The notes under the pieces were generated by a model. The model made no database searches. It was not told the DNA's origin and saw nothing but the letters and a program-made list of their open reading frames with translations. The translations under genes were made by a program, and so were the position numbers. This document shows positions 3,079 to 27,775 of a stretch of DNA of 36,012 bases, piece after piece. Source of the stretch: a virus (lineage: Duplodnaviria; Heunggongvirae; Uroviricota; Caudoviricetes); the IMG/VR virus record IMGVR_UViG_2654587772_000001; one strand, 5' to 3'. Each line of letters begins with the position of its first letter. Within the stretch, counting starts at the first letter, position 1.

Positions 3079-3365
3079 ATAATTAACCAGAGTTTTTAAC
3101 GCACTTAATCGTGCGGGGCTTCTTTTTGCCTGGAGAAAGTCATGCATACAGTTTCTGAAAATCAGTGCGGTAAATACGCATTACTGCTGCAACAGGCCTG
3201 AACCGAAGCACAGGCCGACGCTGCGACGCGCTTTTCTTCTCATCTTGACGCCATGATTCGCCACATCACAAAGGCGGAGTTATCCCGCGTGGAGATAGTT
3301 GAGCTGCTCAGTCAGGAGTCGGAAAAATTTCACAATATCGGATTGTCTCGCGGGGAGGTGCTTTG

Positions 3366-3668
3366 ATGTCCTGTTCTCGTTCGGTTGTATTACTGAATAA
3401 CGCCTTAAAAATCGCCGTTATGAAAAATGGTGATTTGTCTCTTATTCAACTTGGTCTTGATAAAGAAAAACGCGAAATAACTGAGTCTGTTATCGCGATT
3501 TATCAGAACGAATTAAATCTCCTGTCTGATGTGGTCAATTTACTTGTTAAACGCGCTGTATTTCACAAGAAAATCTCCTCCGTGGATGAACTGACAAAAT
3601 TAACGACAGAAATTGCCAGCTATTGCGCTGATGAATTTAAAAAACTTAACGACAAAAGGAGCTGGTAA
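3366..3668 (+). CDS. hypothetical early protein (P2 orf81-like)
   Basis: 100-aa ORF from first ATG (the track start at 3363 is TTG); RBS GGGGAGG about 7 nt upstream; stop overlaps next start. Confidence 0.55.
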   Translation: MSCSRSVVLLNNALKIAVMKNGDLSLIQLGLDKEKREITESVIAIYQNELNLLSDVVNLLVKRAVFHKKISSVDELTKLTTEIASYCADEFKKLNDKRSW

Positions 3669-6537: not shown

Positions 6538-7458
6538 ATGGGCTTGGCGATGTATAACGATCCTTATAGTGACCCAAAAGCGTGGGAATCATATTTCAAA
6601 AATATTGTTTGGCTACATTATAAGCCTGCTAACTGTTGTGACTTGCCAGATGAGCATGGAGGCGACTTTGGGCTGGAGTGTTACACTCTGAGTGGTCATG
6701 TTTTTCAGTGTTACTTGCCTGAGCAGTCGAGTGATATTGATAAGCTTTATAAAGCGCAACAAAAAAAGATTTATACTGATATAAAAAAGTTTTCTCAGGA
6801 TAACATTAAAGAATTAGAGGAGCTTTTTGGCACATTAAAAATTAGCCGCTGGATATTAGCTACACCATATAATAAATCGGCGAAATTAAGTCAATATTGC
6901 ACAAAAAAATCATTAAAAGTAAGAGAGTTAGGGATTTCTTACGTTGCTGATGATTTTCAAATAGTAGTGCAAACAGATCGAAATTATATAGAAGAAGCGT
7001 TCTTTCTTCGCAAAAATAACTATCAATTAAGCTTTAATATAAATGATGCGACGGCTGAGAATGCTGCTAACTTTATTAGTGAAAATACATCTTTTTTAGA
7101 TAAGCTAAATTTAAAATTACCTAAGATAAATGATGATGTATCTAGGCAGGGTTTATATAGAGAGTTTTTAATACAAAAATATCTTGATTATCAAAACTTG
7201 CTGGATGCTTTGAAGAGAGACTGGGTTGATATCTATGAAATTATCTATAACTGTGTTCAACATAGAGAACGTAATTTGGTAGGTCTCTTTCTTCTTACTT
7301 CATCAGATGCGAAACCATCAGATATAATGAAAGATGAAATCGCTTTGTTAAAGAAATGTATTGAAGAGGAAGTTAGTACGCTTAAACAGGCTGACTTGGA
7401 TAAGATAACATGGGGAGTTATTTCTGATTGGCTTATAAGATGCCCTTTAGATTTTTAG
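6538..7458 (+). CDS. hypothetical protein, gene 1 of the AT-rich cargo operon (candidate effector component)
   Basis: 306-aa ORF in AT-rich DNA at the tin/old position; no motif recognised by eye apart from a Cys/His-rich N-terminal patch (CCDLPDEHGGDFGLECYTLSGHVFQCY); weak RBS. Confidence 0.6.
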   Translation: MGLAMYNDPYSDPKAWESYFKNIVWLHYKPANCCDLPDEHGGDFGLECYTLSGHVFQCYLPEQSSDIDKLYKAQQKKIYTDIKKFSQDNIKELEELFGTLKISRWILATPYNKSAKLSQYCTKKSLKVRELGISYVADDFQIVVQTDRNYIEEAFFLRKNNYQLSFNINDATAENAANFISENTSFLDKLNLKLPKINDDVSRQGLYREFLIQKYLDYQNLLDALKRDWVDIYEIIYNCVQHRERNLVGLFLLTSSDAKPSDIMKDEIALLKKCIEEEVSTLKQADLDKITWGVISDWLIRCPLDF

Positions 7459-7459
7459 A

Positions 7460-7936
7460 ATGGAAAAGCAAATGCATATAACGATAGATGAAATAATAGG
7501 AAGGCCGTTTACGTTTAATAAACGACCTGAACATTTGCCATGTGATATGAGACCATTGTGGCGTTGCAGTTTGTTGCTGATAATATTCCTTGTCACAGGG
7601 AGAGCTGGTTGCTGTTCTTTAAAAAAACTTCATTTAATTAATTGGATGTTAAAGTCAGAGAATAATGAAGCAATGTTTGAATTCTGGCTTTTAAACAAAG
7701 AAGGTTTAAAGCCTGAAGTAAGATTGGATCCAACTTTAGATAGAGCAATACAGCTATTATTAGCAGAGGATTTTATTTTGAGAAATGAACGAGCGTTCAA
7801 AATAAATGAAAAGGGGCTTAAGGTCGCTGAGAAATTGCTTTCTCTTGATGTGTTCAAAGAAGAAAGGTTGGTGCTAAATAAACATAAGGCTGGACTGTCC
7901 GAAACTAACATTAATAAAATATTTCAGGTGGGTTAA
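7460..7936 (+). CDS. hypothetical small protein, gene 2 of the cargo operon (candidate middle/adaptor component)
   Basis: 158-aa ORF; its ATG lies 1 nt after the gene 1 stop and its stop 1 nt before the gene 3 ATG, indicating translational coupling. Confidence 0.55.
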   Translation: MEKQMHITIDEIIGRPFTFNKRPEHLPCDMRPLWRCSLLLIIFLVTGRAGCCSLKKLHLINWMLKSENNEAMFEFWLLNKEGLKPEVRLDPTLDRAIQLLLAEDFILRNERAFKINEKGLKVAEKLLSLDVFKEERLVLNKHKAGLSETNINKIFQVG

Positions 7937-7937
7937 T

Positions 7938-9959
7938 ATGTCGTTGGAAATTATTTCATTGGAGTTAGTAGCAAATACTTCGGATGGGCGTTATGGTGTT
8001 AGTATACCTTTTTCAAATGGCTTGTTTTTATTAAGAGTTGAGAATTCTCATGGTAAATCAACTTGCATGAATGGGATTGCATATGCACTTGGGATGGAAA
8101 AGGCATTAGGTGTCGGTTCTGGAAAAATCCCATTCCCTCCATCTTTGACTAGAGCACTAACGACAAAAGATAATGTTGAAGTTAGTGTAATATCATCTTA
8201 TGTTTTGCTAAAAATAAAGAATCATAAGGGAATAGAAGCATCTTTGAAAAGGAATATTATCGGTCACGATAATAATAATGTTATTTATATAGATGAGAAG
8301 AATAATGTAAAAAGTAAGAGTGGTACTTATTTTTTACATAGAGAGGGCGATACTGAAAGGGAACGTGGTTTCTATAAGTGGTTAGCTGATTTTATAGGTT
8401 GGAGTTTGCCAAATGTTCCAAACCATAATGGGAAGGACACTATTCTTTATCCATCCGTACTTTTCCCTGCATGGTATGTTGAGCAAAAAAAAGGATGGTC
8501 GTCAATTATGGCGACTGTACCAACACAATTTGGAATTAAAGAGCCAAAGAAAAGAGCTCTAGAATTTTTAATGTCTCTTGATGTTAATGATAATATTTTA
8601 TTGCGTAGTTCGTTAAGAAATGAACTTGATATTATTTATCATGATTGGAAGTTAATTAAACACAATGCAGAAGTTATTGCTTCTAAATTGTCGTCAGTTG
8701 TCACAGGGATTCCTGAACAACCAGTGGCAAAATTTGATCATTATAAGATAGATTTGATTATTAAAAATGGTAGCGTCGTTAGATCTATTGTTGATGTTCG
8801 TAATGAACTGGAAAAAGAGTTGCAAGAAATTAAGTTTGACACTCTTGGTGAGCAAGAAGAACAAACTTTACAATTATCAGTGGTTAAGTTATTAGGTCAA
8901 AAAAATGATGAAATTAACTCTCTGGAATTAAAGATTAAAGAGATTTGTGAGCATAGAAGTTATATTCAATATCAAATTCAGGCGACCAAAAACAGATTGT
9001 ATAATCTGTTGGAAGATAAAAGGAAGTATGAAGATTTAAAGAAAATATCATCTTCGGATGCGTATAAGTCAACAGATTTAATGTCAAATATTTGTCCGAC
9101 TTGTGGTGCAAGTTATAATGATAATTTGCTAAGTTTTTCATCGCAAGAAAATCTGATGACATATGAAGATAGTTTGAACTTTATTAAAGAGCAAGTAAAA
9201 GCATTTGAGTTTGTTCTGTCGGATAGTGAAAAGCAATTAAAGCTTAAAGATGTTGAGAGGAGTGATTTAGAGGGGGAAATAGCCAAGATTAGAGTTGATA
9301 TTAATGCATTAAGGGAGTCAAAATATCCCTCAATGGTTGTTCAGGAGGAGTTTCTGAGACGTAAAATAAACATTGAGAATAAAATTAATGCCATTAACGA
9401 TGGCATTAAAAGTATATTGGACATTAGACTGGAGTTGGATTCATTACACCGTAGATATAAAAAGCTTATCGCGAAAAGAAAAGGGTTGCCAGATAATTTC
9501 TTGTCGCGTAATGATGCCGATAAGTTAAAATTTCTTAATAAAGAAGTCGTTGCACGATTAGAAAAATATAATTTTACAAGTTTTGATTCTAAACTTGTGT
9601 CAATATCAGAAGATAATTACTTACCTACTAGGGAAGGATATGATATAGGTTTTGACACATCAGCTAGTGATGGAATAAGAATCATTTGGGGTTATTTAAT
9701 AAGTTTATTTGTTGTTGGTTCTAAATTTCAAACAAATCACCCTGGATTGATTGTGTTTGATGAGCCTCGTCAACAAGAAGCAAATAAAGTAAGTTTTGCC
9801 GAGTTACTTAAAGATGCTGCAGAAACAACAAAAGGACAAGGGCAGATCATTTTTGCTACATCAGAAGATGAAAATGTCTTAAAAGAGGCATTAGAAGGGT
9901 ATGACTATACAATGATATCCTTTGATAAGAACAATGGGAAATTGTTGAGGAAATTATAA
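7938..9959 (+). CDS. SMC/Rad50-like ABC ATPase with coiled coil and CxxC hook (LmuB/DdmC-like), gene 3 of the cargo operon
   Basis: 673 aa; Walker A VENSHGKST (aa 34-42); long E/K/L-rich heptad-like region aa 280-540; CPTC at aa 386-389 (nt 9093..9104) mid coiled coil; signature-like SASDG and Walker B GLIVFDEP (aa 603-610); SD AGGTGG upstream. Confidence 0.75.
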   Translation: MSLEIISLELVANTSDGRYGVSIPFSNGLFLLRVENSHGKSTCMNGIAYALGMEKALGVGSGKIPFPPSLTRALTTKDNVEVSVISSYVLLKIKNHKGIEASLKRNIIGHDNNNVIYIDEKNNVKSKSGTYFLHREGDTERERGFYKWLADFIGWSLPNVPNHNGKDTILYPSVLFPAWYVEQKKGWSSIMATVPTQFGIKEPKKRALEFLMSLDVNDNILLRSSLRNELDIIYHDWKLIKHNAEVIASKLSSVVTGIPEQPVAKFDHYKIDLIIKNGSVVRSIVDVRNELEKELQEIKFDTLGEQEEQTLQLSVVKLLGQKNDEINSLELKIKEICEHRSYIQYQIQATKNRLYNLLEDKRKYEDLKKISSSDAYKSTDLMSNICPTCGASYNDNLLSFSSQENLMTYEDSLNFIKEQVKAFEFVLSDSEKQLKLKDVERSDLEGEIAKIRVDINALRESKYPSMVVQEEFLRRKINIENKINAINDGIKSILDIRLELDSLHRRYKKLIAKRKGLPDNFLSRNDADKLKFLNKEVVARLEKYNFTSFDSKLVSISEDNYLPTREGYDIGFDTSASDGIRIIWGYLISLFVVGSKFQTNHPGLIVFDEPRQQEANKVSFAELLKDAAETTKGQGQIIFATSEDENVLKEALEGYDYTMISFDKNNGKLLRKL

Positions 9960-13172: not shown

Positions 13173-13250
13173 TGATGGCGGAGGATGCGCATCGTCGGGA
13201 AACTGATGCCGACATGTGACTCCTCTAATCACTATTCAGGACTCCTGACA

Positions 13251-13865
13251 ATGGCAAAAAAAGTCTCAAAATTCTTTCGTATCGGCGTTGAGGGTGACAC
13301 CTGTGACGGGCGTGTCATCAGTGCGCAGGATATTCAGGAAATGGCTGAAACCTTTGACCCGCGTGTCTACGGTTGCCGCATTAACCTGGAACATCTGCGC
13401 GGCATCCTGCCTGACGGTATTTTTAAACGTTATGGCGATGTGGTCGAACTGAAGGCCGAAAAGATTGATGACGATTCGGCGCTGAAAGGCAAATGGGCGC
13501 TGTTTGCGAAAATCACCCCGACCGATGACCTTATCGCGATGAACAAGGCCGCGCAGAAGGTCTATACCTCAATGGAAATTCAGCCGAACTTTGCCAACAC
13601 CGGCAAATGTTATCTGGTGGGGCTGGCCGTCACCGATGACCCGGCAAGCCTCGGCACGGAATACCTGGAATTCTGCCGCACGGCAAAACACAACCCTCTG
13701 AACCGCTTCAAATTAAGCCCTGAAAACCTGATTTCAGTGGCAACGCCCGTTGAGCTGGAATTTGAAGACCTGCCTGAAACCGTGTTCACCGCCCTGACCG
13801 AAAAGGTGAAATCCATTTTTGGCCGCAAACAGGCCAGCGATGACGCCCTGATGACGAACTGCTGA
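13251..13865 (+). CDS. O: capsid scaffolding protein/protease O (shorter than canonical)
   Basis: First ATG 13251 (MAKKVSKFFRIGVEGDTCDGR...) gives 204 aa; track ORF starts upstream without a plausible start; N-terminus matches P2 gpO. Confidence 0.85.
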   Translation: MAKKVSKFFRIGVEGDTCDGRVISAQDIQEMAETFDPRVYGCRINLEHLRGILPDGIFKRYGDVVELKAEKIDDDSALKGKWALFAKITPTDDLIAMNKAAQKVYTSMEIQPNFANTGKCYLVGLAVTDDPASLGTEYLEFCRTAKHNPLNRFKLSPENLISVATPVELEFEDLPETVFTALTEKVKSIFGRKQASDDALMTNC

Positions 13866-18336: not shown

Positions 18337-18766
18337 TGACGTCACGGTGCTGAAAACTAACCCCGATATGCTGCGGATATTCGTGGATAACGGGAGTATT
18401 GCCTCCACGCTGGCGGAGTCGTTGTCATTCGAAAAGCGTTACACGCTCAATGTCATTGTGACCGACTTTACCGGTGATTTTGACCTGCTCATCGTGCCGG
18501 TGCTGGCGTGGCTGCGGGAAAATCAGCCCGACATCATGACCACCGACGAAGGCCAGAAAAAGGGCTTCACGTTTTATGCAGACATCAACAATGACAGCAG
18601 CTTTGATATCAGCATCAGCCTGATGCTGACCGAGCGCACGCTGGTCAGTGAGGTGGACGGCGCACTGCATGTGAAGAATATCCCGGAACCCACGCCGCCG
18701 GAGCCGGTCACCCGCCCGATGGAGCTTTATATCAATGGTGAACTGGTGAGCAAGTGGGATGAATGA
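18299..18766 (+). CDS. R: tail completion protein R
   Basis: 155-aa ORF; P2 gpR length and position. Confidence 0.85.
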   Translation: MLKPDSLRRALTDDVTVLKTNPDMLRIFVDNGSIASTLAESLSFEKRYTLNVIVTDFTGDFDLLIVPVLAWLRENQPDIMTTDEGQKKGFTFYADINNDSSFDISISLMLTERTLVSEVDGALHVKNIPEPTPPEPVTRPMELYINGELVSKWDE

Positions 18767-19220
18767 GTTTAAGCGTTTTGAAGACCGGCTGACCGGACTG
18801 ATTGAGTCGCTGTCACCGTCAGGGCGTCGTCGACTGGCGGTAGATATTGCGAAGAAGCTGCGCCAGCGCCAGCAGCAGCGAATTAAATTACAAAAAGCCC
18901 CGGATGGTACGCCGTATGTACCGAGAAAAAACCAACCAGTACGAAATAAGAAAGGCCGGATAAAGCGGGAAATGTTTATGAAATTACGCACTAACCGGTT
19001 TATGAAAGCAACCGGTAGCGAGAGTGCCGCGGTGGTGGAGTTTGCCAGCGGAGTGCAACGAATTGCGCGAGTGCATCAGTATGGTTTAAAAGATAGACCC
19101 AATCCCGACGTTAAACCTATTAAGTATGATGAACGTAAACTACTTGGTTTTTCACATAATGATATTGACTTTATAGAATCAACGATCATTAATTGTCTTC
19201 TGGAAAAATCCAGAGAATAG
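18759..19220 (+). CDS. S: tail completion protein S (3' end divergent and AT-rich)
   Basis: 153-aa ORF; N-terminus matches P2 gpS; the last roughly 45 codons are AT-rich. Confidence 0.8.
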   Translation: MNEFKRFEDRLTGLIESLSPSGRRRLAVDIAKKLRQRQQQRIKLQKAPDGTPYVPRKNQPVRNKKGRIKREMFMKLRTNRFMKATGSESAAVVEFASGVQRIARVHQYGLKDRPNPDVKPIKYDERKLLGFSHNDIDFIESTIINCLLEKSRE

Positions 19221-19235
19221 GAAGGTAAAGTACAA

Positions 19236-19775
19236 GTGACATGTAAAAAGAATGAAGGTGATGTTGTAAAGAAAATTGAACTGGTGCTGAAAACAATCGC
19301 GCGGACGGATTCTTATTTAAATTCAGCCAATACTAAATCAACGATATTACTAAGCTTAGCTTCAGCTGTAATTGTTGCTATTATAGCAAATTTTGACAAA
19401 GTTATATGTCTGGTAGATGTGGATAGTGATAGGATTTTTCTCTCTCTTTTATTGATTGTAATAGTTGGGTTATTGGTGATCTCTTTGTTATTTTCTCTAA
19501 AAGGTGTTACTCCAAATATCTCTAAGAGTGATAAGGAGAATACTTTTTCATTTGTTGATATATCAAGTTATTATAGTAGTCTTGATTGCTATTCTAGTAG
19601 TTTTAAGTCAGTGAGTGATCTGGAGTTGTTGGAGCAGTTAATTGCATTGAATTATACTCTTTCCAGAGCATTAACTAGCAAATATGAGATGCAAATCATA
19701 GCCATTGACTTTATAAAAATGGCTGTTTATGTGCTTTGTTTTTTAATATATGTGGTTGCTTTATCTAATTGGTGA
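19236..19775 (+). CDS. small membrane protein with 3 predicted TM helices (candidate membrane effector, SLATT/PycTM-like)
   Basis: 179-aa ORF from GTG 19236 (no in-frame ATG until near the end); SD AGGAAGG upstream; hydrophobic stretches STILLSLASAVIVAIIANF, IFLSLLLIVIVGLLVISLLFSL, MAVYVLCFLIYVVALS; AT-rich. Confidence 0.55.
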   Translation: MTCKKNEGDVVKKIELVLKTIARTDSYLNSANTKSTILLSLASAVIVAIIANFDKVICLVDVDSDRIFLSLLLIVIVGLLVISLLFSLKGVTPNISKSDKENTFSFVDISSYYSSLDCYSSSFKSVSDLELLEQLIALNYTLSRALTSKYEMQIIAIDFIKMAVYVLCFLIYVVALSNW

Positions 19776-19785
19776 AGGTTTTTGT

Positions 19786-21138
19786 ATGTCCATAAAGAGT
19801 ATTTATTTAGTATTAGATGAAAGGCTGGAAGAGATAATTTCAAAATCAAAATCGCAATCAGTCCATGATGCTATATTTGAATCAGTGGATAATACACAGT
19901 TGGCCACGGAGAGCTTAAGTAAATCTTCTGGTTTCGTAAGAAGTTCTATTTCATTGAAAAAAGATGTAGGTGGAGCTGATGTTCAAAGTTATCAGGTGAA
20001 AGATATTGTTAGAAATAAATTTGGCAAGCACGGTCCACTCATGACAAGTTTTGGATGTCATCCGGACTTTAATAAAATGGATGATGGTGAGGTGAGAAAT
20101 GGTTATTCCATTACCATGTTTATGGATATAATCGGCTCAACTAAACTTGGGGTTGTTTTTCCACCAGAAATAGTATTTAGAATCAAAAATGATATTATAA
20201 GATGTGCGATCGAAACAGTGAATGCATTTGATGGTCACGTCCATAGAATTATGGGTGATGCAGTAATGGCATTTTTCCGAAGTAATGACCGATATAAAAA
20301 CAATAAGATCGCAGACAGTGCAATTGATGCAATAAACTGTGCCGTTGTTTTGATTGAAATGTTCAAGGGGGTTGTTATACCTAAATTGAGTGATTTGGGA
20401 GTTGACGAAAACTTAGGAATAAGAATTGGTCTTGACTATGGCCCTCACGAGGAAGTGGTGTGGTCAAAATATGGCTATATGGAAAGTCATGAAGTGACTG
20501 CGACATCTTTTTTTGTTGATGTTGCGGCAAAACTTCAGCAAAAAGCTCCTAAAAACTCAATTATGATAGGTGCAAGTTTTGTAGAGTTATTAGGCCTTGA
20601 TGATGTTCAATTAAAACATAAAATTAACAGAAACAATGGCGTAGAACACAAGGAATTGTATTTAACCCCAAATTATAAAGATGCTTCAGGCAAACCAATA
20701 AATTACAGACAATATGTATTTGATAACGAACGTTATTGTAATTTGCTGCCTATAAATGATGAGGGGGGTAAACTCATTGTAAAAGCAACGCTTAAGAAGA
20801 GTGAAAATGATGTGTCTGATGATGAGTATATTTGTTGTTCTCGAATGATAAAAAAGGGTATGGGTATCTCATTTAAAGGGTACTATTACTCACAAGAACA
20901 GTACTCTAATCCCAGGTTCAAATTTCGTGTCGAAAATACAGGTCCTGATGCAGGTAATGTTGATAATAAGGGTAATCATGAGTCATATGAGGTAGCAAGG
21001 TACACTGGCGAGCGTTATTTTGCTAAGCATTGGGAAGATTGTCATTACAAAGGACTGCATTATATGTTTGTATCTTTTTGGAATGGGGATCAATTAATAG
21101 AAAGGGAGAGGTGTTTTTCAGTTTTTATTAACGATTAA
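19786..21138 (+). CDS. class III nucleotidyl cyclase-domain protein (candidate PycC-like cyclase)
   Basis: 450 aa from ATG 19786 (SD GAAGG 8 nt upstream; track start 19750 overlaps the upstream gene); motifs SITMFMDIIGSTKL (aa 108-121), HRIMGDAVMAFF (153-164), GIRIGLDYGP (211-220), SFFVDVAAKL (241-250) resembling the FxDIxGFT / IGDxxMA / GIHxGxV / VNxAARL blocks of adenylyl/guanylyl-type cyclases. Confidence 0.7.
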   Translation: MSIKSIYLVLDERLEEIISKSKSQSVHDAIFESVDNTQLATESLSKSSGFVRSSISLKKDVGGADVQSYQVKDIVRNKFGKHGPLMTSFGCHPDFNKMDDGEVRNGYSITMFMDIIGSTKLGVVFPPEIVFRIKNDIIRCAIETVNAFDGHVHRIMGDAVMAFFRSNDRYKNNKIADSAIDAINCAVVLIEMFKGVVIPKLSDLGVDENLGIRIGLDYGPHEEVVWSKYGYMESHEVTATSFFVDVAAKLQQKAPKNSIMIGASFVELLGLDDVQLKHKINRNNGVEHKELYLTPNYKDASGKPINYRQYVFDNERYCNLLPINDEGGKLIVKATLKKSENDVSDDEYICCSRMIKKGMGISFKGYYYSQEQYSNPRFKFRVENTGPDAGNVDNKGNHESYEVARYTGERYFAKHWEDCHYKGLHYMFVSFWNGDQLIERERCFSVFIND

Positions 21139-21238
21139 ATTGTGATTTATTTGAGGGGGGGAATGTAGTCTGTTGTATCATACCTCACCAAAGCATCAAA
21201 ATTTGCCGCTAGTGTAAACTAGCGGCATCCTTCCCGTT

Positions 21239-21874
21239 ATGAACACTCTCGCAAATATTCAGGAACTCGCGCGCGCACTGCGCAACATGATTCGCACCGG
21301 CATTATCATCGAAACCGACCTTAACGCCGGTCGCTGCCGTGTGCAGACCGGCGGCATGTGCACCGACTGGCTTCAGTGGCTGACCTGTCGTGCCGGGCGT
21401 TCGCGCACATGGTGGGCACCTTCCGTGGGGGAGCAGGTGCTGATTCTGGCCGTGGGCGGTGAACTTGACACGGCGTTTGTTCTGCCGGGGATTTATTCCG
21501 GCGATAACCCCGCGCCGTCTGCGTCGGCGGATGCCCTGCATATCCGTTTCCCTGACGGGGCGGTGATTGAGTATGAACCCGAAACCAGTGCACTCACGGT
21601 AAGCGGAATTAAAACGGCCAGCGTGACGGCTTCTGATTCTGTTACTGCCACGGTGCCGGTGGTCACGGTGAAAGCATCAACCCGCGTCACCCTGGACACA
21701 CCGGAGGTGGTCTGCACCAACAGGCTGATTACCGGCACGCTGGAAGTGCAGAAGGGCGGGACGATGCGCGGCAACATTGAACACACCGGCGGTGAACTCT
21801 CATCAAACGGTAAGGTACTGCATACCCATAAACACCCCGGCGACAGCGGCGGCACAACCGGGAGTCCTCTATGA
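21239..21874 (+). CDS. V: baseplate spike protein V
   Basis: 211-aa ORF; P2 gpV length and sequence. Confidence 0.9.
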   Translation: MNTLANIQELARALRNMIRTGIIIETDLNAGRCRVQTGGMCTDWLQWLTCRAGRSRTWWAPSVGEQVLILAVGGELDTAFVLPGIYSGDNPAPSASADALHIRFPDGAVIEYEPETSALTVSGIKTASVTASDSVTATVPVVTVKASTRVTLDTPEVVCTNRLITGTLEVQKGGTMRGNIEHTGGELSSNGKVLHTHKHPGDSGGTTGSPL

Positions 21875-23735: not shown

Positions 23736-25057
23736 CAGTGAAATACTACGCCATTCTGACTAATCAGGGCGCAGCACGGCTGGCTAACGCGACGATGCTC
23801 GGCAGTAAGCTGAATCTGACGCAAATGGCCGTTGGTGATGCGAATGGTGTCTTGCCGACACCAGACCCGGCACAGACAAAACTGATTAACCAGAAACGCA
23901 TCGCGCCGCTGAATCTTCTGAGTGTTGACCCGAACAACCAGAGCCAGATTATTGCGGAGCAAATCATCCCTGAGAACGAGGGCGGATTCTGGATCCGTGA
24001 GATTGGGCTTTATGATGATGAAGGCGTACTCATTGCGGTGGCGAACTGCCCGGAAACGTACAAACCGCAGTTGCAGGAAGGCAGTGGTCGTACCCAGACT
24101 ATCCGCATGATTCTGGTTGTCACGAATACCGAAGCTATCACGCTGAAAATCGACCCGTCGGTGGTACTGGCGACCCGTAAATACGTGGATGATGAAGTCC
24201 TGGAATTAAAGCTGTATGTGGATGACCAGATGAGAAACCACATTGCCGCACAGGATCCTCATACCCAGTATGCGCAGAAACATAATCCGACATTTACCGG
24301 AGAACCAAAAGCGCCGACGCCTGCCGCAGGAAATAACACCACGCGGATTGCGACCACTGAGTTTGTTCAGGCCGCTATTACCGCTCTGATTAACGGTGCG
24401 CCAGCCACACTGGACACACTGAAAGAAATTGCCGCGGCCATTAACAATGACCCGAAATTCAGCACCACCATTAACAATGCGCTGTCAGGTAAGCAGCCAC
24501 TGGATGAGACGCTGACTCATTTGAGTGGAAAGGATGTAGCTGGTCTTCTCGCATACCTTGGTTTGGGAGAAGGTTCTGCGTTGCCTGTTGGCATACCAGT
24601 TCCTTGGCCTTCAGCTACGCCGCCAACAGGCTGGCTGAAATGCAACGGGGCTGCTTTTTCGGCTGAAGAATACCCGGAACTGGCAAAGGCTTACCCGACA
24701 AATAAATTGCCTGATTTACGTGGTGAGTTTATTCGTGGCTGGGATGACGGGCGGGGGATTGATACAGGTCGCTCTATTTTAAGTATTCAGGGGTATGCAA
24801 CGGAGGATCATGCTCATGGATTACCGTCAAGATCCACGATTGTGACTGATGCAACGATTAATTTCTATTTTGATGAAAGCTGGGTAAATAGTGGCACTGA
24901 CATTATCAAAAGAGGAAACACAAACGATGCTGGATTACCAGCACCGGATTATGGAACCTTTAAAACATATAAACAATCAGTGGCTGGTTTAGGTGCCGCA
25001 GCCTCAGAAACGCGTCCGCGTAATATTGCATTTAACTATATCGTGAGGGCAGCCTGA
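23732..25057 (+). CDS. H: tail fibre protein H (constant N-terminal part plus currently expressed variable C-terminus)
   Basis: 441-aa ORF; N-terminus MTVKYYAILTNQGAARLANA as in P2 gpH; C-terminal tail-collar/receptor-binding-like region; crossover site inside the gene. Confidence 0.85.
   Translation: MTVKYYAILTNQGAARLANATMLGSKLNLTQMAVGDANGVLPTPDPAQTKLINQKRIAPLNLLSVDPNNQSQIIAEQIIPENEGGFWIREIGLYDDEGVLIAVANCPETYKPQLQEGSGRTQTIRMILVVTNTEAITLKIDPSVVLATRKYVDDEVLELKLYVDDQMRNHIAAQDPHTQYAQKHNPTFTGEPKAPTPAAGNNTTRIATTEFVQAAITALINGAPATLDTLKEIAAAINNDPKFSTTINNALSGKQPLDETLTHLSGKDVAGLLAYLGLGEGSALPVGIPVPWPSATPPTGWLKCNGAAFSAEEYPELAKAYPTNKLPDLRGEFIRGWDDGRGIDTGRSILSIQGYATEDHAHGLPSRSTIVTDATINFYFDESWVNSGTDIIKRGNTNDAGLPAPDYGTFKTYKQSVAGLGAAASETRPRNIAFNYIVRAA
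24548..24573. repeat. invertase crossover site (hix/gix-like), left copy inside H
   Basis: The reverse complement TTCTCCCAAACCAAGGTATGCGA matches TTCTCTCAAACCAACGTTTTATGG at 26455..26480 (14/15 over the conserved core stretch); resembles hix/gix sites. Confidence 0.45.
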
Positions 25058-25659
25058 TGCATAAAGCAATATTAAATAGTGAGCTCATTGCAACAAAGGC
25101 AGGGGATGTTACCGTTTATAACTATGATGGTGAAACACGGGAATATATTTCCACTTCAAATGAATATCTTGCCGTTGGTGTCGGCATTCCGGCATGTTCC
25201 TGTTTAGATGCCCCTGGCACACATAAGGCTGGTTATGCAATCTGCCGTTCTGCAGATTTTAACTCATGGGAATATGTGCCAGACCATCGCGGTGAAACGG
25301 TCTATAGCACCGAAACAGGAGAATCAAAAGAAATCACCGCTCCGGGTGATTACCCTGAAAATACAACCACTATCGCCCCATTAACGCCATATGATAAATG
25401 GGATGGTGAGAAATGGGTGACGGATACCGAGGCACAGCATAGCGCCGCAGTAGATGCAGCAGAAGCACAGCGCCAGTCGCTGATTGATACTGCAATGGCT
25501 TCCATCAGTCTGATTCAACTGAAATTGCAGGCCGGACGTAAACTGACGCAGGCAGAAACAACCCGGCTTAACGCTGTGCTGGATTACATTGACGCGGTGA
25601 CGGCAACAGATACCAGCACCGCGCCGGATGTCATCTGGCCTGAACTGCCGGAGGCGTAG
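25057..25659 (+). CDS. G: tail fibre assembly chaperone (G / Tfa)
   Basis: 200-aa ORF with start overlapping the H stop; Tfa-like sequence with conserved C-terminal region (RLNAVLDYIDAVTATDTSTAPDVIWPELP). Confidence 0.8.
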   Translation: MHKAILNSELIATKAGDVTVYNYDGETREYISTSNEYLAVGVGIPACSCLDAPGTHKAGYAICRSADFNSWEYVPDHRGETVYSTETGESKEITAPGDYPENTTTIAPLTPYDKWDGEKWVTDTEAQHSAAVDAAEAQRQSLIDTAMASISLIQLKLQAGRKLTQAETTRLNAVLDYIDAVTATDTSTAPDVIWPELPEA

Positions 25660-26083
25660 GCCATTCAATATCTGGTGCACTGGAGGTATCAACCAGCTCC
25701 AGTGCATCCAGATAATCCAGCCACAAATTATATTGCGCCAGTTCCTCACCTTTCAGACGACCAATAGCGGCTTTACCGGGCCATTGCTTACTGTTCATGT
25801 ATTCGTTGGCCTGGTTAATTAGTAGCTGTCTTTCTGATTCAGTAATTTCAATAAGCTCTTCATGCGTGGGTGGAGGAATATCTGCCCACGCAGGCAGCCC
25901 ATCATCTCCGGCAATACGGATTTTTCCTTGTGGCGGTTCAGCCATAAACTCACTGATAATATTTTGATTTACTTCCTTAGCGTCTGATAAATCCCATCCC
26001 TCTGATTTATATTTATCAATCATATCCACAGGGAAAAAAGCATTATGCCTTGCGCTATAAACATATTCGTTCATATAAATCAC
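25631..26083 (-). CDS. alternative tail fibre assembly chaperone (inverted orientation)
   Basis: 150-aa ORF convergent with G, with related C-terminus (YNLWLDYLDALELVDTSSAPDIEWPTPP). Confidence 0.7.
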   Translation of the reverse strand: MIYMNEYVYSARHNAFFPVDMIDKYKSEGWDLSDAKEVNQNIISEFMAEPPQGKIRIAGDDGLPAWADIPPPTHEELIEITESERQLLINQANEYMNSKQWPGKAAIGRLKGEELAQYNLWLDYLDALELVDTSSAPDIEWPTPPAVQAR

Positions 26084-26094
26084 CCTGAATAAAA

Positions 26095-26463
26095 TTACTC
26101 ACCAACAGCCCACCAACTGTAATTCATCGATACCGTGTCGCTGGTTGATGACGTTCTGTAAGCAGAATTAAAGCCGGTTAACGTTGGGCCTTCTGCAGTC
26201 ATCACGAACCCTCGCCCAGCGCCTAAAGGCGCACCGCCATCACCAGAATGAGTAAGCATGGCGCAGTCCGCTTTTTTGGGGAAAGGGATGCTGAATGTAA
26301 TTCTCATTGTTTGCGTCGATAATGTCGGCGTAACCGCACCACGACCATATTGCAGGATTTTCCCGTTGGGTAATTTCATCCATCCATCACCACTGGCAAA
26401 AGAGGCCATGTCCGGTATCTGATTTTCCCCTGTCCCCACATCCCGTTTTGCCGCTTCTCTCAA
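26095..26463 (-). CDS. alternative tail fibre C-terminal segment (promoter-less and start-less; would fuse to H after inversion)
   Basis: Open frame on the minus strand running to the crossover site at about 26466 with no credible own start; Gly/Thr/Ser-rich fibre-tip-like sequence. Confidence 0.6.
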   Translation of the reverse strand: MREAAKRDVGTGENQIPDMASFASGDGWMKLPNGKILQYGRGAVTPTLSTQTMRITFSIPFPKKADCAMLTHSGDGGAPLGAGRGFVMTAEGPTLTGFNSAYRTSSTSDTVSMNYSWWAVGE

Positions 26464-26480
26464 ACCAACGTTTTATGGAA
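26455..26480. repeat. invertase crossover site (hix/gix-like), right copy
   Basis: TTCTCTCAAACCAACGTTTTATGGAA; inverted-repeat partner of 24548..24573. Confidence 0.45.
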
Positions 26481-26570
26481 TCGGTTAAATATGATGTTGA
26501 AAGAAGGGAGTGTCCTAGTATTGATTGTTAGATAAAAATGGAAAGTGCTGATTGTAACGGTATATTTTAA

Positions 26571-26598
26571 GATGGTAACACCAAATGGTGCTACCATC
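26571..26598. terminator. candidate bidirectional rho-independent terminator
   Basis: Hairpin GATGGTAACACC-AAAT-GGTGCTACCATC followed by TTTATT on the + strand and by an A/T-rich tract on the - strand; lies just downstream of the minus-strand 105-aa gene. Confidence 0.4.
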
Positions 26599-26606
26599 TT
26601 TATTAG

Positions 26607-26924
26607 TTATCTGTTCCTTCTGAGGATTCCGCTACTCCCTTGTGTTGTAGGGTTTAATTTTTTCCAATAATGATAACCTTGTGATGTAATCCTTAGAGAG
26701 GCAGTATCTACACTCCATCCATCAATACTTTCAGGAGAACCATCGAAGATTACCTTTCCTGTAAGATACCCATCGTCATGCAGAAAGGCGATATATCCAT
26801 AAACTTCTTTTAAATCACCAATTTCATTGACTAGGCGTTCCCACGCTTGAACAGTGATTCTCTCTGGATAGGCTTCGACAAAATATTTCAGTGTGGTAGT
26901 TTTTTTATTGGTATCGATGTTCAT
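26607..26924 (-). CDS. hypothetical protein (AT-rich moron between the invertible segment and the invertase)
   Basis: 105-aa ORF with ATG at 26924 and a good SD (AAGGAAA) upstream on the minus strand; AT-rich; no recognisable motif. Confidence 0.5.
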   Translation of the reverse strand: MNIDTNKKTTTLKYFVEAYPERITVQAWERLVNEIGDLKEVYGYIAFLHDDGYLTGKVIFDGSPESIDGWSVDTASLRITSQGYHYWKKLNPTTQGSSGILRRNR

Positions 26925-27122
26925 CAGATTTTCCTTTTATTGAGGTCAACCTATCTTACCATACTTATTTGTTTCACATGGGAATGCTAAGTGGGCTATG
27001 TATCCACTATCAGTAAATATTCTTATCCAGCAAGATTACTGTAACTGAGAGCTCCATAGCCTTGTCCGCTTGTACATATATAGATAATTCTGTGTCATTA
27101 TTCTGTTTTTATAGGGATTTTT

Positions 27123-27716
27123 ATGCGTATAGGTTATGTTCGTGTATCAACAAATGACCAGAACACGGAATTGCAGCGTAACGCGCTCGAGTGCGCAGGA
27201 TGTGAGCTGATTTTTGAGGATAAAATCAGCGGCACGAAGTCCGACCGACCGGGGCTGAAAAAACTGCTCAGAACATTATCAGCAGGTGACACTCTGGTAG
27301 TCTGGAAGCTGGACAGGCTGGGGCGTAGTATGCGGCATCTGGTCATTCTGGTTGAGGAACTGCGCGAACGCGGCATTAATTTTCGCAGCCTGACAGATGC
27401 TATTGATACCAGCACGCCGATGGGGCGTTTTTTCTTTCATGTGATGGGTGCCCTGGCTGAAATGGAACGAGAACTCATTGTCGAACGGACTCGGGCCGGG
27501 CTGGAAGCGGCCAGAGCCAAAGGTCGTATTGGTGGCAGACGTCCTAAACTCACCACGAGTGAGTGGGAGCAGGTCGGGCGTTTGCTGGCTGCAGGGGAGT
27601 CACGTCAACGCGTGGCACTGATTTTTGATATTGGCCTGTCCACGCTCTATAAAAAATTTCCCTCATCAGCGATAAAGAATAAATTGTGTCATCCCTTAGC
27701 CAACCGGGACAAATAG
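27123..27716 (+). CDS. serine DNA invertase (Hin/Gin/Pin/Cin family)
   Basis: 197-aa ORF; N-terminal resolvase catalytic domain with GYVRVST-DQ (Ser nucleophile), LVVWKLDRLGRS, and a C-terminal HTH; closely resembles Hin/Gin. Confidence 0.9.
   Translation: MRIGYVRVSTNDQNTELQRNALECAGCELIFEDKISGTKSDRPGLKKLLRTLSAGDTLVVWKLDRLGRSMRHLVILVEELRERGINFRSLTDAIDTSTPMGRFFFHVMGALAEMERELIVERTRAGLEAARAKGRIGGRRPKLTTSEWEQVGRLLAAGESRQRVALIFDIGLSTLYKKFPSSAIKNKLCHPLANRDK
27684..27710 (+). promoter_or_regulatory. late-promoter upstream element (candidate PF) TTGTGTCATCCCTTAGCCAACCGGGAC
   Basis: 21/27 identical to the element upstream of O (13146..13172); ends about 66 nt before the FI start; lies inside the 3' end of the invertase gene. 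Confidence 0.45.
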
Positions 27717-27775
27717 CCTGACATCTCCGGCACAACTGAAAATATCACTCACCCATTAACCACGGAGTTAAACGG

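What the first reader, a model, noticed from the sequence alone, without database searches (positions are those of the whole stretch)
19786..21138. Cyclase-like protein has non-canonical residues and large unassigned N- and C-terminal regions
The two metal-binding Asp positions appear present (D114 in FMDIIGST, D158 in IMGDAVMA), but the block that normally reads VNxAARLE is VDVAAKLQ here, so the usual Asn/Arg are replaced. That could alter base specificity (for example pyrimidines) or indicate a non-catalytic sensor. About 100 aa before and about 170 aa after the cyclase fold (including CC at aa 350-351 and several His/Tyr/Trp-rich stretches) have no feature I can assign.
Basis: seen in the sequence. 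Interest (0 to 1): 0.6.

Follow-up and report, generated by a model that had tools for sequence, protein, structure and literature searches.

The report
Prophage-borne Pycsar pyrimidine cyclase defence cassette
The odd-looking cyclase is the signal-making enzyme (PycC) of a known two-gene anti-phage system called Pycsar, carried as cargo by a P2-like prophage of E. coli; its unusual residues and extra regions are standard features of that enzyme family, so the finding is real but ordinary.

Summary
The interpretation needs correcting. ORF 19786-21138 is a PycC cyclase and the gene 10 nt upstream (19236-19775) is its PycTM membrane effector, together a Pycsar anti-phage system. Both match PADLOC models over nearly full length (E 1.5e-128 and 8.5e-29).

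The Asn->Asp245 and Arg->Lys249 changes are in register and invariant in 91 homologues down to 40% identity. They also occur in a near-copy of EcPycC, the E. coli enzyme reported to make cCMP. They are a clade signature, not decay.

Both "unassigned" regions are known PycC elements:
- N-terminus: hallmark helix plus a disordered linker, also unresolved in the EaPycC crystal 8JSF.
- C-terminus: clade-E beta-hairpins plus an Ig-like AGS-C domain; top fold hit is 9ARD, the EcPycC AGS-C (TM 0.70).

The 34% GC cassette fills the gpS/gpV cargo slot of a P2-like prophage of E. coli ST2747, where P2 carries orf30. This protein is not EcPycC itself (~42% identity in the cyclase domain, ~16% in AGS-C) and is untested.

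Verdict: new member of a known kind, low interest. In passing, a Lamassu system sits at 6550-9959, annotated only as hypothetical proteins.

The parts
19236..19775 (+). pycTM: 179-aa Pycsar membrane effector (GTG start; three hydrophobic segments at about aa 32-63, 56-95 and 152-179)
   Evidence: Pfam PF18967 PycTM E 3.1e-6, above the gathering cutoff. PADLOC PycTM PDLC02364 E 8.5e-29. RefSeq name 'Pycsar system effector family protein'. Hydropathy scan.
   Evidence: PADLOC PycC PDLC00764 E 1.5e-128 over model positions 12-448 of 449. Best PDB sequence and fold hit is 8JSF, the EaPycC cytidylate cyclase. 475 homologues, nearly all with PF00211 + PF18134.
19792..19890 (+). aa 3-35: N-terminal alpha-helix, the PycC hallmark helix
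   Evidence: AF2 model has helices 3-6 and 8-35. The family profile aligns to EaPycC from residue 6-7 onward. The N-terminal helix is described as a PycC hallmark in PMC11224242.
19870..19980 (+). aa 29-65: disordered, poorly conserved, length-variable linker
   Evidence: pLDDT below 50 for 29-65. Mean column conservation 0.25; the aa 26-70 segment that contains it is 18-51 residues long in homologues. Residues 22-66 are missing from the EaPycC crystal.
20083..20610 (+). aa 100-275: class III nucleotide cyclase core, containing F112, D114, R154, M156, D158, T238, D245 and K249
   Evidence: Pfam PF00211 covers 111-273. Foldseek hits to 8JSF and to CyaC, CyaB and guanylyl cyclases. Invariant positions listed.
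20515..20538 (+). aa 244-251 VDVAAKLQ: variant of the VNxAARLE/Q block (Asn->D245, Arg->K249)
   Evidence: Gap-free alignment to CyaC VNIAARLQ. V244, D245, A247, A248, K249, L250, Q251 and Q252 are invariant in 91 homologues. The EcPycC-like copy reads VDMTAKLQQ.
20611..20748 (+). aa 276-321: beta-hairpin extension after the core, matching the 'Y-shaped' beta10-13 element of clade E EaPycC
   Evidence: Model strands 279-283, 286-290 and 308-312. Alignment to EaPycC extends to query residue 322. Element described.
20773..21132 (+). aa 330-449: Ig-like AGS-C domain (conserved C351, N384, G386, A389, H398, G423, H425)
   Evidence: Pfam PF18134 E 6.9e-6, 26.5 bits against a 26.7-bit cutoff; precomputed PF18134 in almost all homologues. 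Family profile hits 9ARD at E 1.6e-8. Domain-only model pLDDT 93.5. Top Foldseek hit is 9ARD, the EcPycC AGS-C domain, E 3.3e-6, TM 0.70/0.68.
19221..21202 (.). Low-GC cargo insertion in the gpS/gpV intergenic slot of the P2-like prophage
   Evidence: GC is 0.343 against 0.551 and 0.586 in the flanks. Phage Wphi has 66 bp between S and V. P2 has the non-essential orf30 there. Homology to Wphi resumes at 21203.
21204..21227 (.). Conserved GC-rich hairpin between the cassette and gpV. By position relative to gpS and gpV it corresponds to the putative O-operon terminator annotated in P2, though no sequence alignment to P2 was made. The cassette therefore lies inside the late O transcription unit.
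   Evidence: Hairpin detected. Also present after PycC in L002 and between S and V in Wphi. P2 annotation 'putative rho-independent terminator for O operon' lies immediately after S.
18759..19220 (+). gpS (tail completion / virion morphogenesis), the left flank of the slot
   Evidence: RefSeq annotation. Homologue L002 has Phage_tail_S immediately upstream of PycTM.
21239..21874 (+). gpV (baseplate assembly protein), the right flank of the slot
   Evidence: RefSeq annotation. About 95% DNA identity to Wphi V.

Best explanation
The ORF is the PycC cyclase of a two-gene Pycsar abortive-infection system (pycTM then pycC). The system is carried as a low-GC moron in the gpS/gpV cargo slot of a P2-like prophage of E. 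coli ST2747.

Proposed mechanism:
- In a lysogen, infection by another phage activates PycC (trigger unknown).
- The homodimeric class III cyclase core uses D114 and D158 to bind two divalent metals. It cyclises a pyrimidine NTP to a 3',5'-cyclic pyrimidine monophosphate, most probably CTP to cCMP.
- The cyclic nucleotide activates the three-segment membrane protein PycTM, which damages the membrane and kills or arrests the cell before the invading phage completes its cycle.

D245 and K249, at the canonical Asn and Arg positions, are the fixed signature of this AGS-C-bearing PycC lineage and are compatible with catalysis. The N-terminal ~100 aa is the PycC hallmark helix, a disordered linker and a conserved GxHPxF pre-core segment. 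The C-terminal ~170 aa is the clade-E beta-hairpin element plus an Ig-like AGS-C domain, presumed to tune phage sensing.

Shown here: family membership, architecture, residue mapping and conservation, conserved gene pairing, and the insertion site. Inferred: the product (cCMP), the defence phenotype, the effector action and the role of AGS-C.
For: - Family: PADLOC PycC E 1.5e-128 over nearly the whole model, and PycTM E 8.5e-29. Pfam Guanylate_cyc, AGS_C and PycTM.
- Nearest solved structures: EaPycC 8JSF, a clade E cCMP synthase (phmmer E 1.5e-25, profile E 1.5e-46 covering residues 7-305, Foldseek E 1.7e-19), and 9ARD, the EcPycC AGS-C domain (profile E 1.6e-8; Foldseek E 3.3e-6, TM 0.70).
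- Residue mapping: F112, D114, R154, M156 and D158 correspond to EaPycC F100, D102, R142, Q144 and D146.
- Conservation: F112, D114, H153-D158, T238, V244, D245 and A247-Q252 are invariant in 91 homologues of 40-67% identity.
- Active relatives: a frameshifted copy 96% identical to the 9ARD EcPycC sequence reads FVDI, HRLMGD and VDMTAKLQQ and is 41-43% identical to the window protein in the cyclase domain. EcPycC is reported to make cCMP in vitro and in infected cells, and only clade E PycCs make cCMP (PMC11224242). E. coli E831 Pycsar defends against T5 and P1.
- Conserved pairing: the PycTM-then-PycC order recurs in a 67%-identical copy at the same post-gpS slot, and in a 43%-identical P. 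aeruginosa copy outside any P2 context.
- Cargo nature: GC 0.34 against 0.55-0.59 in the flanks. Wphi has 66 bp at this junction and P2 has orf30. Only 5 of 5426 complete E. coli genomes carry the cassette, each time between gpS and gpV.
Against: - Nothing was tested biochemically or genetically for this protein; it is only ~42% identical (cyclase domain) to EcPycC and 27% to EaPycC.
- One of the three EaPycC specificity residues differs (Q144 to M156). The cCMP call therefore rests on the EcPycC-like copy also having Met there, and that copy is a 96% proxy, not the deposited E831 sequence.
- The founding paper (Tal et al. 2021) could not be read here, so no formal clade assignment on its tree was made.
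- The Pfam AGS_C score for this sequence alone falls 0.2 bits below the gathering cutoff.
- No convincing dedicated promoter was found. The one 10/12 match, at 19151-19179, is not conserved in L002, and the number of promoter-like sites is no higher than in shuffles. Expression in the lysogen is therefore unproven.
- RefSeq marks two genes of the prophage as pseudogenes.
Confidence: 0.88

Rival explanations
1. It is a Pycsar cyclase, but it makes cUMP or another cyclic nucleotide and not cCMP. In this reading the invariant Met156 (Gln in EaPycC) and the D245/K249 pair re-tune substrate choice.
For: Q144 is required for cCMP synthesis in EaPycC and is Met here in all 91 homologues. Other PycC clades make cUMP. 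A cGMP-making 'Pucsar' offshoot of the family is reported in a 2026 preprint abstract.
Against: The EcPycC-like copy also reads HRLMGD and VDMTAKLQQ, and EcPycC is reported as a cCMP synthase. F112 and R154 match the EaPycC CTP-binding residues. The cUMP-making PycCs BcPycC (7R65) and AnPycC (8JSZ) are far more distant (E 0.15 and 0.13).
Confidence: 0.08
2. It is a catalytically dead cyclase-fold protein that acts only as a sensor or scaffold, because the transition-state Asn and Arg are lost.
For: The canonical Asn and Arg of class III cyclases are replaced.
Against: Both metal-binding Asp, the substrate-contacting F and R, and the entire D/K block are invariant across 91 homologues. Lys is a conservative replacement for Arg, and the active EaPycC also has Lys there and Ser in place of Asn. 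The EcPycC-like copy carries the same D/K pair. A dedicated cNMP-responsive effector family gene remains paired with the cyclase in distant homologues.
Confidence: 0.03
3. It is a housekeeping or phage-regulatory adenylate/guanylate cyclase, as the generic RefSeq name suggests, unrelated to defence.
For: RefSeq product name 'adenylate/guanylate cyclase domain-containing protein'. Pfam PF00211 hit.
Against: The best matches by a wide margin are PycC models and structures. The canonical purine-specifying Lys position is Arg154. The adjacent gene belongs to the PycTM family. The cassette is sporadic cargo present in 5 of 5426 genomes.
Confidence: 0.01

Closest known systems
EcPycC / EcPycTM, the Pycsar system of E. 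coli E831 (Tal et al. 2021, Cell 184:5728; AGS-C domain structure PDB 9ARD)
   Same: Both are two-gene Pycsar systems with a TM effector. Both cyclases combine a class III core with a C-terminal Ig-like AGS-C domain. The motif signature is the same (FxDI, HR[IL]MGD, VD..AKLQQ) in the 96% proxy copy. The AGS-C folds superpose at TM 0.70. The host species is the same.
   Different: Only 41-43% identity in the cyclase domain and about 16% in the AGS-C structural alignment. tblastn finds no AGS-C HSP between the two at E<=1. EcPycC-type DNA is absent from 5426 complete E. coli genomes, whereas the window type is present in 5, always in a P2-like prophage. In the related proxy copy on L005 the neighbours are GmrSD and a resolvase, not phage tail genes. 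The window protein is untested.
EaPycC, clade E cytidylate cyclase of Elizabethkingia anophelis (PDB 8JSF; Hou et al. 2024, PMC11224242)
   Same: Homologous from residue ~7 to ~305. Shared features: N-terminal helix, a disordered linker (22-66 there, 29-65 here), metal-binding Asp pair, F and R specificity residues, Lys at the canonical Arg position, and a post-core beta-hairpin element.
   Different: 27% identity. EaPycC is 342 aa and lacks the AGS-C domain. It has Gln144 where this protein has Met156, and Ser where this protein has Asp245.
Canonical class III adenylyl/guanylyl cyclases (e.g. Spirulina CyaC 1WC0/1WC1, P. aeruginosa CyaB 3R5G)
   Same: Same catalytic fold (Foldseek E ~1e-11, target-normalised TM ~0.8). 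Same two metal-binding Asp.
   Different: Asn is replaced by Asp245 and Arg by Lys249. The purine-specifying Lys position is Arg154. There are additional N-terminal and C-terminal PycC-specific elements. The protein is paired with a membrane death effector.
Type I CBASS CD-NTases fused to AGS-C (Richmond-Buccola et al., bioRxiv 10.1101/2023.05.21.541620)
   Same: They carry the same C-terminal Ig-like AGS-C domain: PADLOC oligonucleotide-cyclase models match residues 328-442. They share the nucleotide-signal plus effector abortive-infection logic, and AGS-C correlates with phage-family specificity.
   Different: The catalytic domain is an unrelated Pol-beta-like CD-NTase fold that makes cyclic oligonucleotides, not a class III cyclase making cyclic mononucleotides.
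P2 orf30 and the P2 tin/old hotspot cargo (Rousset et al. 2022, PMC9122126)
   Same: Non-essential, AT-rich cargo in fixed intergenic slots of P2-like phages. P2 orf30 occupies the same S/V junction.
   Different: Rousset et al. surveyed the gpA/gpQ hotspot, not the S/V junction, and mention Pycsar only in passing. orf30 is a single gene on the opposite strand.

Membership tests
Pycsar system (PycC + effector) | Cyclase with a class III nucleotide cyclase fold and both metal-binding Asp residues | tested here: met
   Pfam PF00211 above the cutoff. Foldseek to 8JSF and class III cyclases. D114 and D158 align to EaPycC D102 and D146 and are invariant.
Pycsar system (PycC + effector) | Sequence membership in curated PycC models, as opposed to generic cyclases | tested here: met
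   PADLOC PDLC00764 E 1.5e-128, model positions 12-448 of 449, plus 12 further PycC models at lower scores. No NCBIfam model exists for it.
Pycsar system (PycC + effector) | Adjacent effector gene with TM or TIR output (PycTM/PycTIR), conserved as a pair | tested here: met
   PF18967 PycTM and PADLOC PycTM for the gene 10 nt upstream. The same pair and order occur in L002, L003 and L004.
Pycsar system (PycC + effector) | N-terminal alpha-helix hallmark of PycC enzymes | tested here: met
   Model helix 8-35. Profile alignment to EaPycC starts at residue 6-7. Hallmark described in PMC11224242.
Pycsar system (PycC + effector) | Synthesis of cCMP or cUMP from CTP or UTP | not testable with these tools
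   Inferred only, from F112/R154 matching EaPycC F100/R142 and from Met156 being shared with the EcPycC-like copy.
Pycsar system (PycC + effector) | Confers abortive-infection phage resistance | not testable with these tools
   Shown for E. coli E831 Pycsar against T5 and P1, not for this variant.
Clade E (cCMP-making) PycC | CTP-specificity triad F100/R142/Q144 of EaPycC | tested here: inconclusive
   F112 and R154 are conserved. Q144 is replaced by the invariant M156. The EcPycC-like copy also has Met, so Gln is probably not a clade-wide requirement.
Clade E (cCMP-making) PycC | Placement within clade E on the Tal et al. 2021 PycC tree | not tested
   Tal et al. 2021 and its 967-sequence set were not available. 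Similarity ranking favours the clade E enzymes EaPycC and EcPycC-like over clade B 7R65 and clade D 8JSZ.
AGS-C domain (PF18134) | Ig-like beta-sandwich at the C-terminus of a nucleotide cyclase, homologous to known AGS-C | tested here: met
   Pfam E 6.9e-6, 0.2 bits under the gathering cutoff. Family profile against 9ARD E 1.6e-8. Domain model pLDDT 93.5, with 9ARD as top Foldseek hit at TM 0.70. PADLOC CBASS cyclase models match 328-442.
Canonical class III adenylyl/guanylyl cyclase | Transition-state Asn and Arg in the VNxAARLE/Q block | tested here: not met
   D245 and K249 occupy these positions.
Canonical class III adenylyl/guanylyl cyclase | Purine-specifying Lys (adenine) or Glu (guanine) four residues before the second metal Asp | tested here: not met
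   Arg154 aligns to the CyaC Lys in KFVGD. This Arg is the EaPycC R142 equivalent needed for cCMP synthesis.
P2-like prophage moron / cargo slot | Compositionally foreign, non-essential insertion at a fixed intergenic site that is empty or differently filled in relatives | tested here: met
   GC 0.343 against 0.55-0.59. Wphi is empty there and P2 has orf30. 5 of 5426 genomes carry the cassette.

The most novel reading that the evidence does not exclude
This P2-borne PycC could be a functionally distinct sensor variant of Pycsar. Its AGS-C domain is only ~16% identical to that of the characterised EcPycC, against ~42% for the catalytic domain. It also has a long, fast-evolving disordered linker between the N-terminal helix and the core. 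If AGS-C or the linker is the infection-sensing element, this lineage would recognise a different phage cue from EcPycC. One possibility is a cleavable activation loop sensed by phage prohead proteases, by analogy with CBASS CD-NTases (PMC12991175). The lineage would then offer a natural pair for mapping how Pycsar is triggered, which is still unknown. It is also more frequent than the EcPycC type among complete E. coli genomes (5 of 5426 against none detected).
Probability: 0.15. Interest if true: 0.5.

Novelty: new member of a known kind. Interest (0 to 1): 0.15.

Why it matters
The practical value is mainly in annotation and in choosing what to test.
- The cyclase is still labelled generically in RefSeq, although the pair is a recognisable Pycsar system.
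- The Asp/Lys replacement of the canonical Asn/Arg is a fixed signature of the AGS-C-bearing PycC lineage. It should not be read as inactivation.
- In the complete E. coli genomes searched, the Pycsar variant detected is this P2 prophage-borne one and not the laboratory model EcPycC. The two differ most in the putative sensor domain.
- Comparing the two could help identify what triggers Pycsar, an open question. That is a modest opportunity and not a surprise.

Tried and rejected
1. Reading Tal et al. 2021 (PMC9070634 and its DOI) and the published CBASS screen paper failed because neither is held. Clade assignment and EcPycC details therefore rest on secondary sources and PDB titles.
2. I searched supplements of three papers and the literature for an EcPycC/E831 accession or sequence and found nothing usable.
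3. I first suspected the window protein might be EcPycC itself. This was rejected: the 9ARD title names EcPycC, and its sequence is only distantly related to the window AGS-C.
4. A search with the 9ARD sequence returned only fragments. The full-length parent had to be pieced together from a frameshifted contig copy, and no copy exists in complete E. coli genomes.
5. Dedicated promoter: the scan gave 12 sites against 8.6 +/- 2.8 in shuffles. The best-placed site (19151-19179) is not conserved in L002. I did not adopt it.
6. Protease-sensed linker hypothesis: [IL]xE density in the aa 26-70 segment containing the linker is 1.76 per 100 aa against 1.20 elsewhere, and there is no conserved motif. 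I kept it only as an unexcluded speculation.
7. A Cys-Cys or His-rich metal site in the C-terminus: only C351, H398 (80 of 91) and H425 are conserved, and C351 aligns to Val in EcPycC.
8. NCBIfam has no model for either protein.
Full report
**1. What is in the sequence**

ORF 19786-21138 (+) encodes 450 aa. The window is 100% identical to the chromosome of E. coli ST2747 (NZ_CP007394). There the ORF is WP_025210649.1, 'adenylate/guanylate cyclase domain-containing protein', and the gene 10 nt upstream (19236-19775, 179 aa) is annotated 'Pycsar system effector family protein'.

**2. Family assignment**

PADLOC places the ORF in PycC (PDLC00764, E 1.5e-128, model positions 12-448 of 449) and the upstream gene in PycTM (E 8.5e-29). 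Pfam finds three domains:
- Guanylate_cyc at residues 111-273.
- AGS_C at residues 330-448 (E 6.9e-6; 26.5 bits against a 26.7-bit cutoff).
- PycTM in the neighbouring gene.

The nearest solved protein is 8JSF (E 1.5e-25; with the family profile E 1.5e-46 over residues 7-305). 8JSF is EaPycC, a clade E PycC shown to make cCMP. Its metal ligands are D102 and D146, and F100, R142 and Q144 are required for activity (PMC11224242).

An AlphaFold2 model built on 91 homologues is confident (pLDDT 85.5, pTM 0.86). Its best Foldseek hit is 8JSF (E 1.7e-19), followed by ordinary class III cyclases.

**3. The 'non-canonical' residues**

Alignments to Spirulina CyaC put VDVAAKLQ opposite VNIAARLQ without gaps.

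These substitutions are not signs of decay. In 91 homologues of 40-67% identity, F112, D114, H153-R-I-M-G-D158, T238, V244, D245 and A247-A-K-L-Q-Q252 are all invariant. EaPycC, an active enzyme, has Ser and Lys at the two positions.

In established class III cyclase mechanism, these two residues orient the ribose and stabilise the transition state. They do not select the base. The base-contacting positions map as follows:
- F112 corresponds to EaPycC F100.
- R154 corresponds to EaPycC R142, and also aligns to the purine-specifying Lys of CyaC in KFVGD.
- M156 corresponds to EaPycC Q144.

**4. Relation to the laboratory model EcPycC**

The family profile also hit PDB 9ARD (E 1.6e-8) over the C-terminal domain. 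Its PDB title is 'Structure of Pycsar EcPycC cyclase immunoglobulin-like AGS-C domain'. EcPycC is the E. coli E831 enzyme reported to make cCMP, and its system defends against T5 and P1.

Searching with the 9ARD sequence recovered a 96%-identical, frameshifted gene copy on a metagenomic contig, L005. Its cyclase part reads FVDIRKSS, HRLMGDALMAF and VDMTAKLQQ, and is 41-43% identical to the window protein.

It follows that the D/K signature and the Met at the Q144 position are shared with what is very probably the cCMP-making EcPycC. This rests on the inference that the L005 copy represents EcPycC outside the crystallised domain. It also follows that the window protein is not EcPycC but a diverged relative. 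EcPycC-type DNA is absent from 5426 complete E. coli genomes, whereas the window type is in 5.

**5. The 'unassigned' regions**

N-terminus:
- The model has a helix at 8-35 and a disordered stretch at 29-65 (pLDDT below 50).
- It then has a conserved pre-core segment with invariant K81, G90, H92, P93 and F95.
- EaPycC has the same layout. Its N-terminal helix is described as a PycC hallmark, and residues 22-66 are missing from the crystal.
- The linker is the least conserved part of the protein (mean 0.25). The aa 26-70 segment that contains it varies from 18 to 51 residues among homologues.

C-terminus:
- Residues 276-321 form beta-hairpins. These correspond to the 'Y-shaped' beta10-13 element of EaPycC.
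- Residues 330-449 form a beta-sandwich. A domain-only model (pLDDT 93.5) has 9ARD as its top PDB hit (E 3.3e-6, TM 0.70/0.68, 16% identity).
- AGS-C fusions on PycC and on type I CBASS CD-NTases are already described. They are Ig-like, and they correlate with which phage families are restricted, but their function is unproven.
- Of the CC pair only C351 is invariant, and it aligns to Val in EcPycC.

**6. Genomic context**

The window is a P2-like prophage inserted between yegR and yegQ. The cassette has 34.3% GC against 55-59% in the flanks. It lies between gpS (tail completion) and gpV (baseplate).

- Phage Wphi has only 66 bp at this junction.
- P2 has the non-essential orf30 there, between the O-operon terminator and the pV activator site.
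- Homology to Wphi resumes at 21203, at a conserved hairpin (21204-21227). By its position relative to gpS and gpV, the hairpin corresponds to P2's annotated O-operon terminator.
- Only 15 nt separate the gpS stop from the pycTM start. The cassette therefore sits inside the late O transcription unit.
- A promoter-like site at 19151-19179 is not conserved in the 67%-identical cassette L002, and the number of promoter-like sites is at chance level.
- The PycTM-then-PycC pair recurs after gpR/gpS in L002, and in a non-P2 context near an integrase in P. aeruginosa at 43% identity. The pair is thus the mobile functional unit.

**7. Mechanism and confidence**

The best explanation (confidence 0.88) is a Pycsar abortive-infection module. 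PycC is activated on infection by an unknown cue. It then makes a cyclic pyrimidine monophosphate, most probably cCMP. That signal activates PycTM, which compromises the membrane.

- Shown here: membership, architecture, conserved catalytic apparatus, conserved pairing and cargo status.
- Inferred: the product, the phenotype and the sensor role of AGS-C.

Rival explanations:
- A different nucleotide product: 0.08.
- A dead enzyme: 0.03.
- A housekeeping cyclase: 0.01.

**8. Novelty**

This particular lineage is uncharacterised, and it diverges from EcPycC most strongly in the putative sensor domain. I rate it a new member of a known kind with low interest (0.15).

The most novel reading not excluded is that the AGS-C domain or the linker gives this lineage a different trigger. 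One version of this is protease-sensed activation, as reported for CBASS (PMC12991175). My only test of that idea, [IL]xE density in the aa 26-70 segment containing the linker, showed no meaningful enrichment.

Noticed in passing
window 6550-9959 (+): A second low-GC island (GC 0.32-0.33) lies between P2 gpA (replication endonuclease) and gpQ (portal), which is the tin/old hotspot. Its three genes are annotated 'hypothetical protein' in RefSeq but match PADLOC LmuA (E 9.4e-30), LmuC (E 2.3e-23) and LmuB (E 1.1e-98). This is a Lamassu defence system, so the prophage carries two defence cassettes.
   Followed up: partly
window ~13250-13860 and ~3140-3370 (L001 14152-14760 and 4043-4267): RefSeq marks the capsid scaffolding gene (gpO homologue) as incomplete, missing its C-terminus, and a DUF2732 gene as having an internal stop. 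The prophage may be defective while still carrying intact defence cargo.
   Followed up: no
window ~25050-27720: The tail-fibre region contains oppositely oriented tail-fibre assembly genes, a gp53-like fragment and a 'recombinase family protein' gene. This is the layout of an invertible host-range segment.
   Followed up: no
L005 1-1148 (Logan ERR10498409 contig): The only near-copy of the EcPycC gene found (96% identical to the 9ARD sequence) is broken into three reading frames. It sits next to a resolvase and a GmrSD-family gene. No EcPycC-type DNA was found in 5426 complete E. coli genomes, so the laboratory model Pycsar was not detected in any complete E. coli genome searched.
   Followed up: partly
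window 20749-21135 (PycC aa 322-450): After 9ARD, the next-best structural neighbours of the AGS-C model are lipid-binding Ig-like beta-sandwiches: RhoGDI, PDE6-delta and the Der p 2 / ML domain (Foldseek E 5e-4 to 1e-2, TM 0.45-0.6). This weakly hints that AGS-C might hold a hydrophobic ligand pocket. It may equally reflect generic Ig-fold similarity.
   Followed up: no
window 18917-19220 (3' part of gpS): Homology to phage Wphi stops at 18916, within gpS and well before the cassette. By contrast, the 67%-identical cassette in L002 is collinear from gpS through the terminator hairpin. The divergent gpS 3' end may travel with the Pycsar cargo.
   Followed up: partly
window 20053-20070 (PycC aa 90-95): A GxHPxF motif (G90, H92, P93, F95) just before the Pfam cyclase domain is invariant in 91 homologues. 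It is also present in EaPycC (GAHPSF) and in the EcPycC-like copy (GTHPEL, partly). I found no description of its role in the papers read.
   Followed up: no
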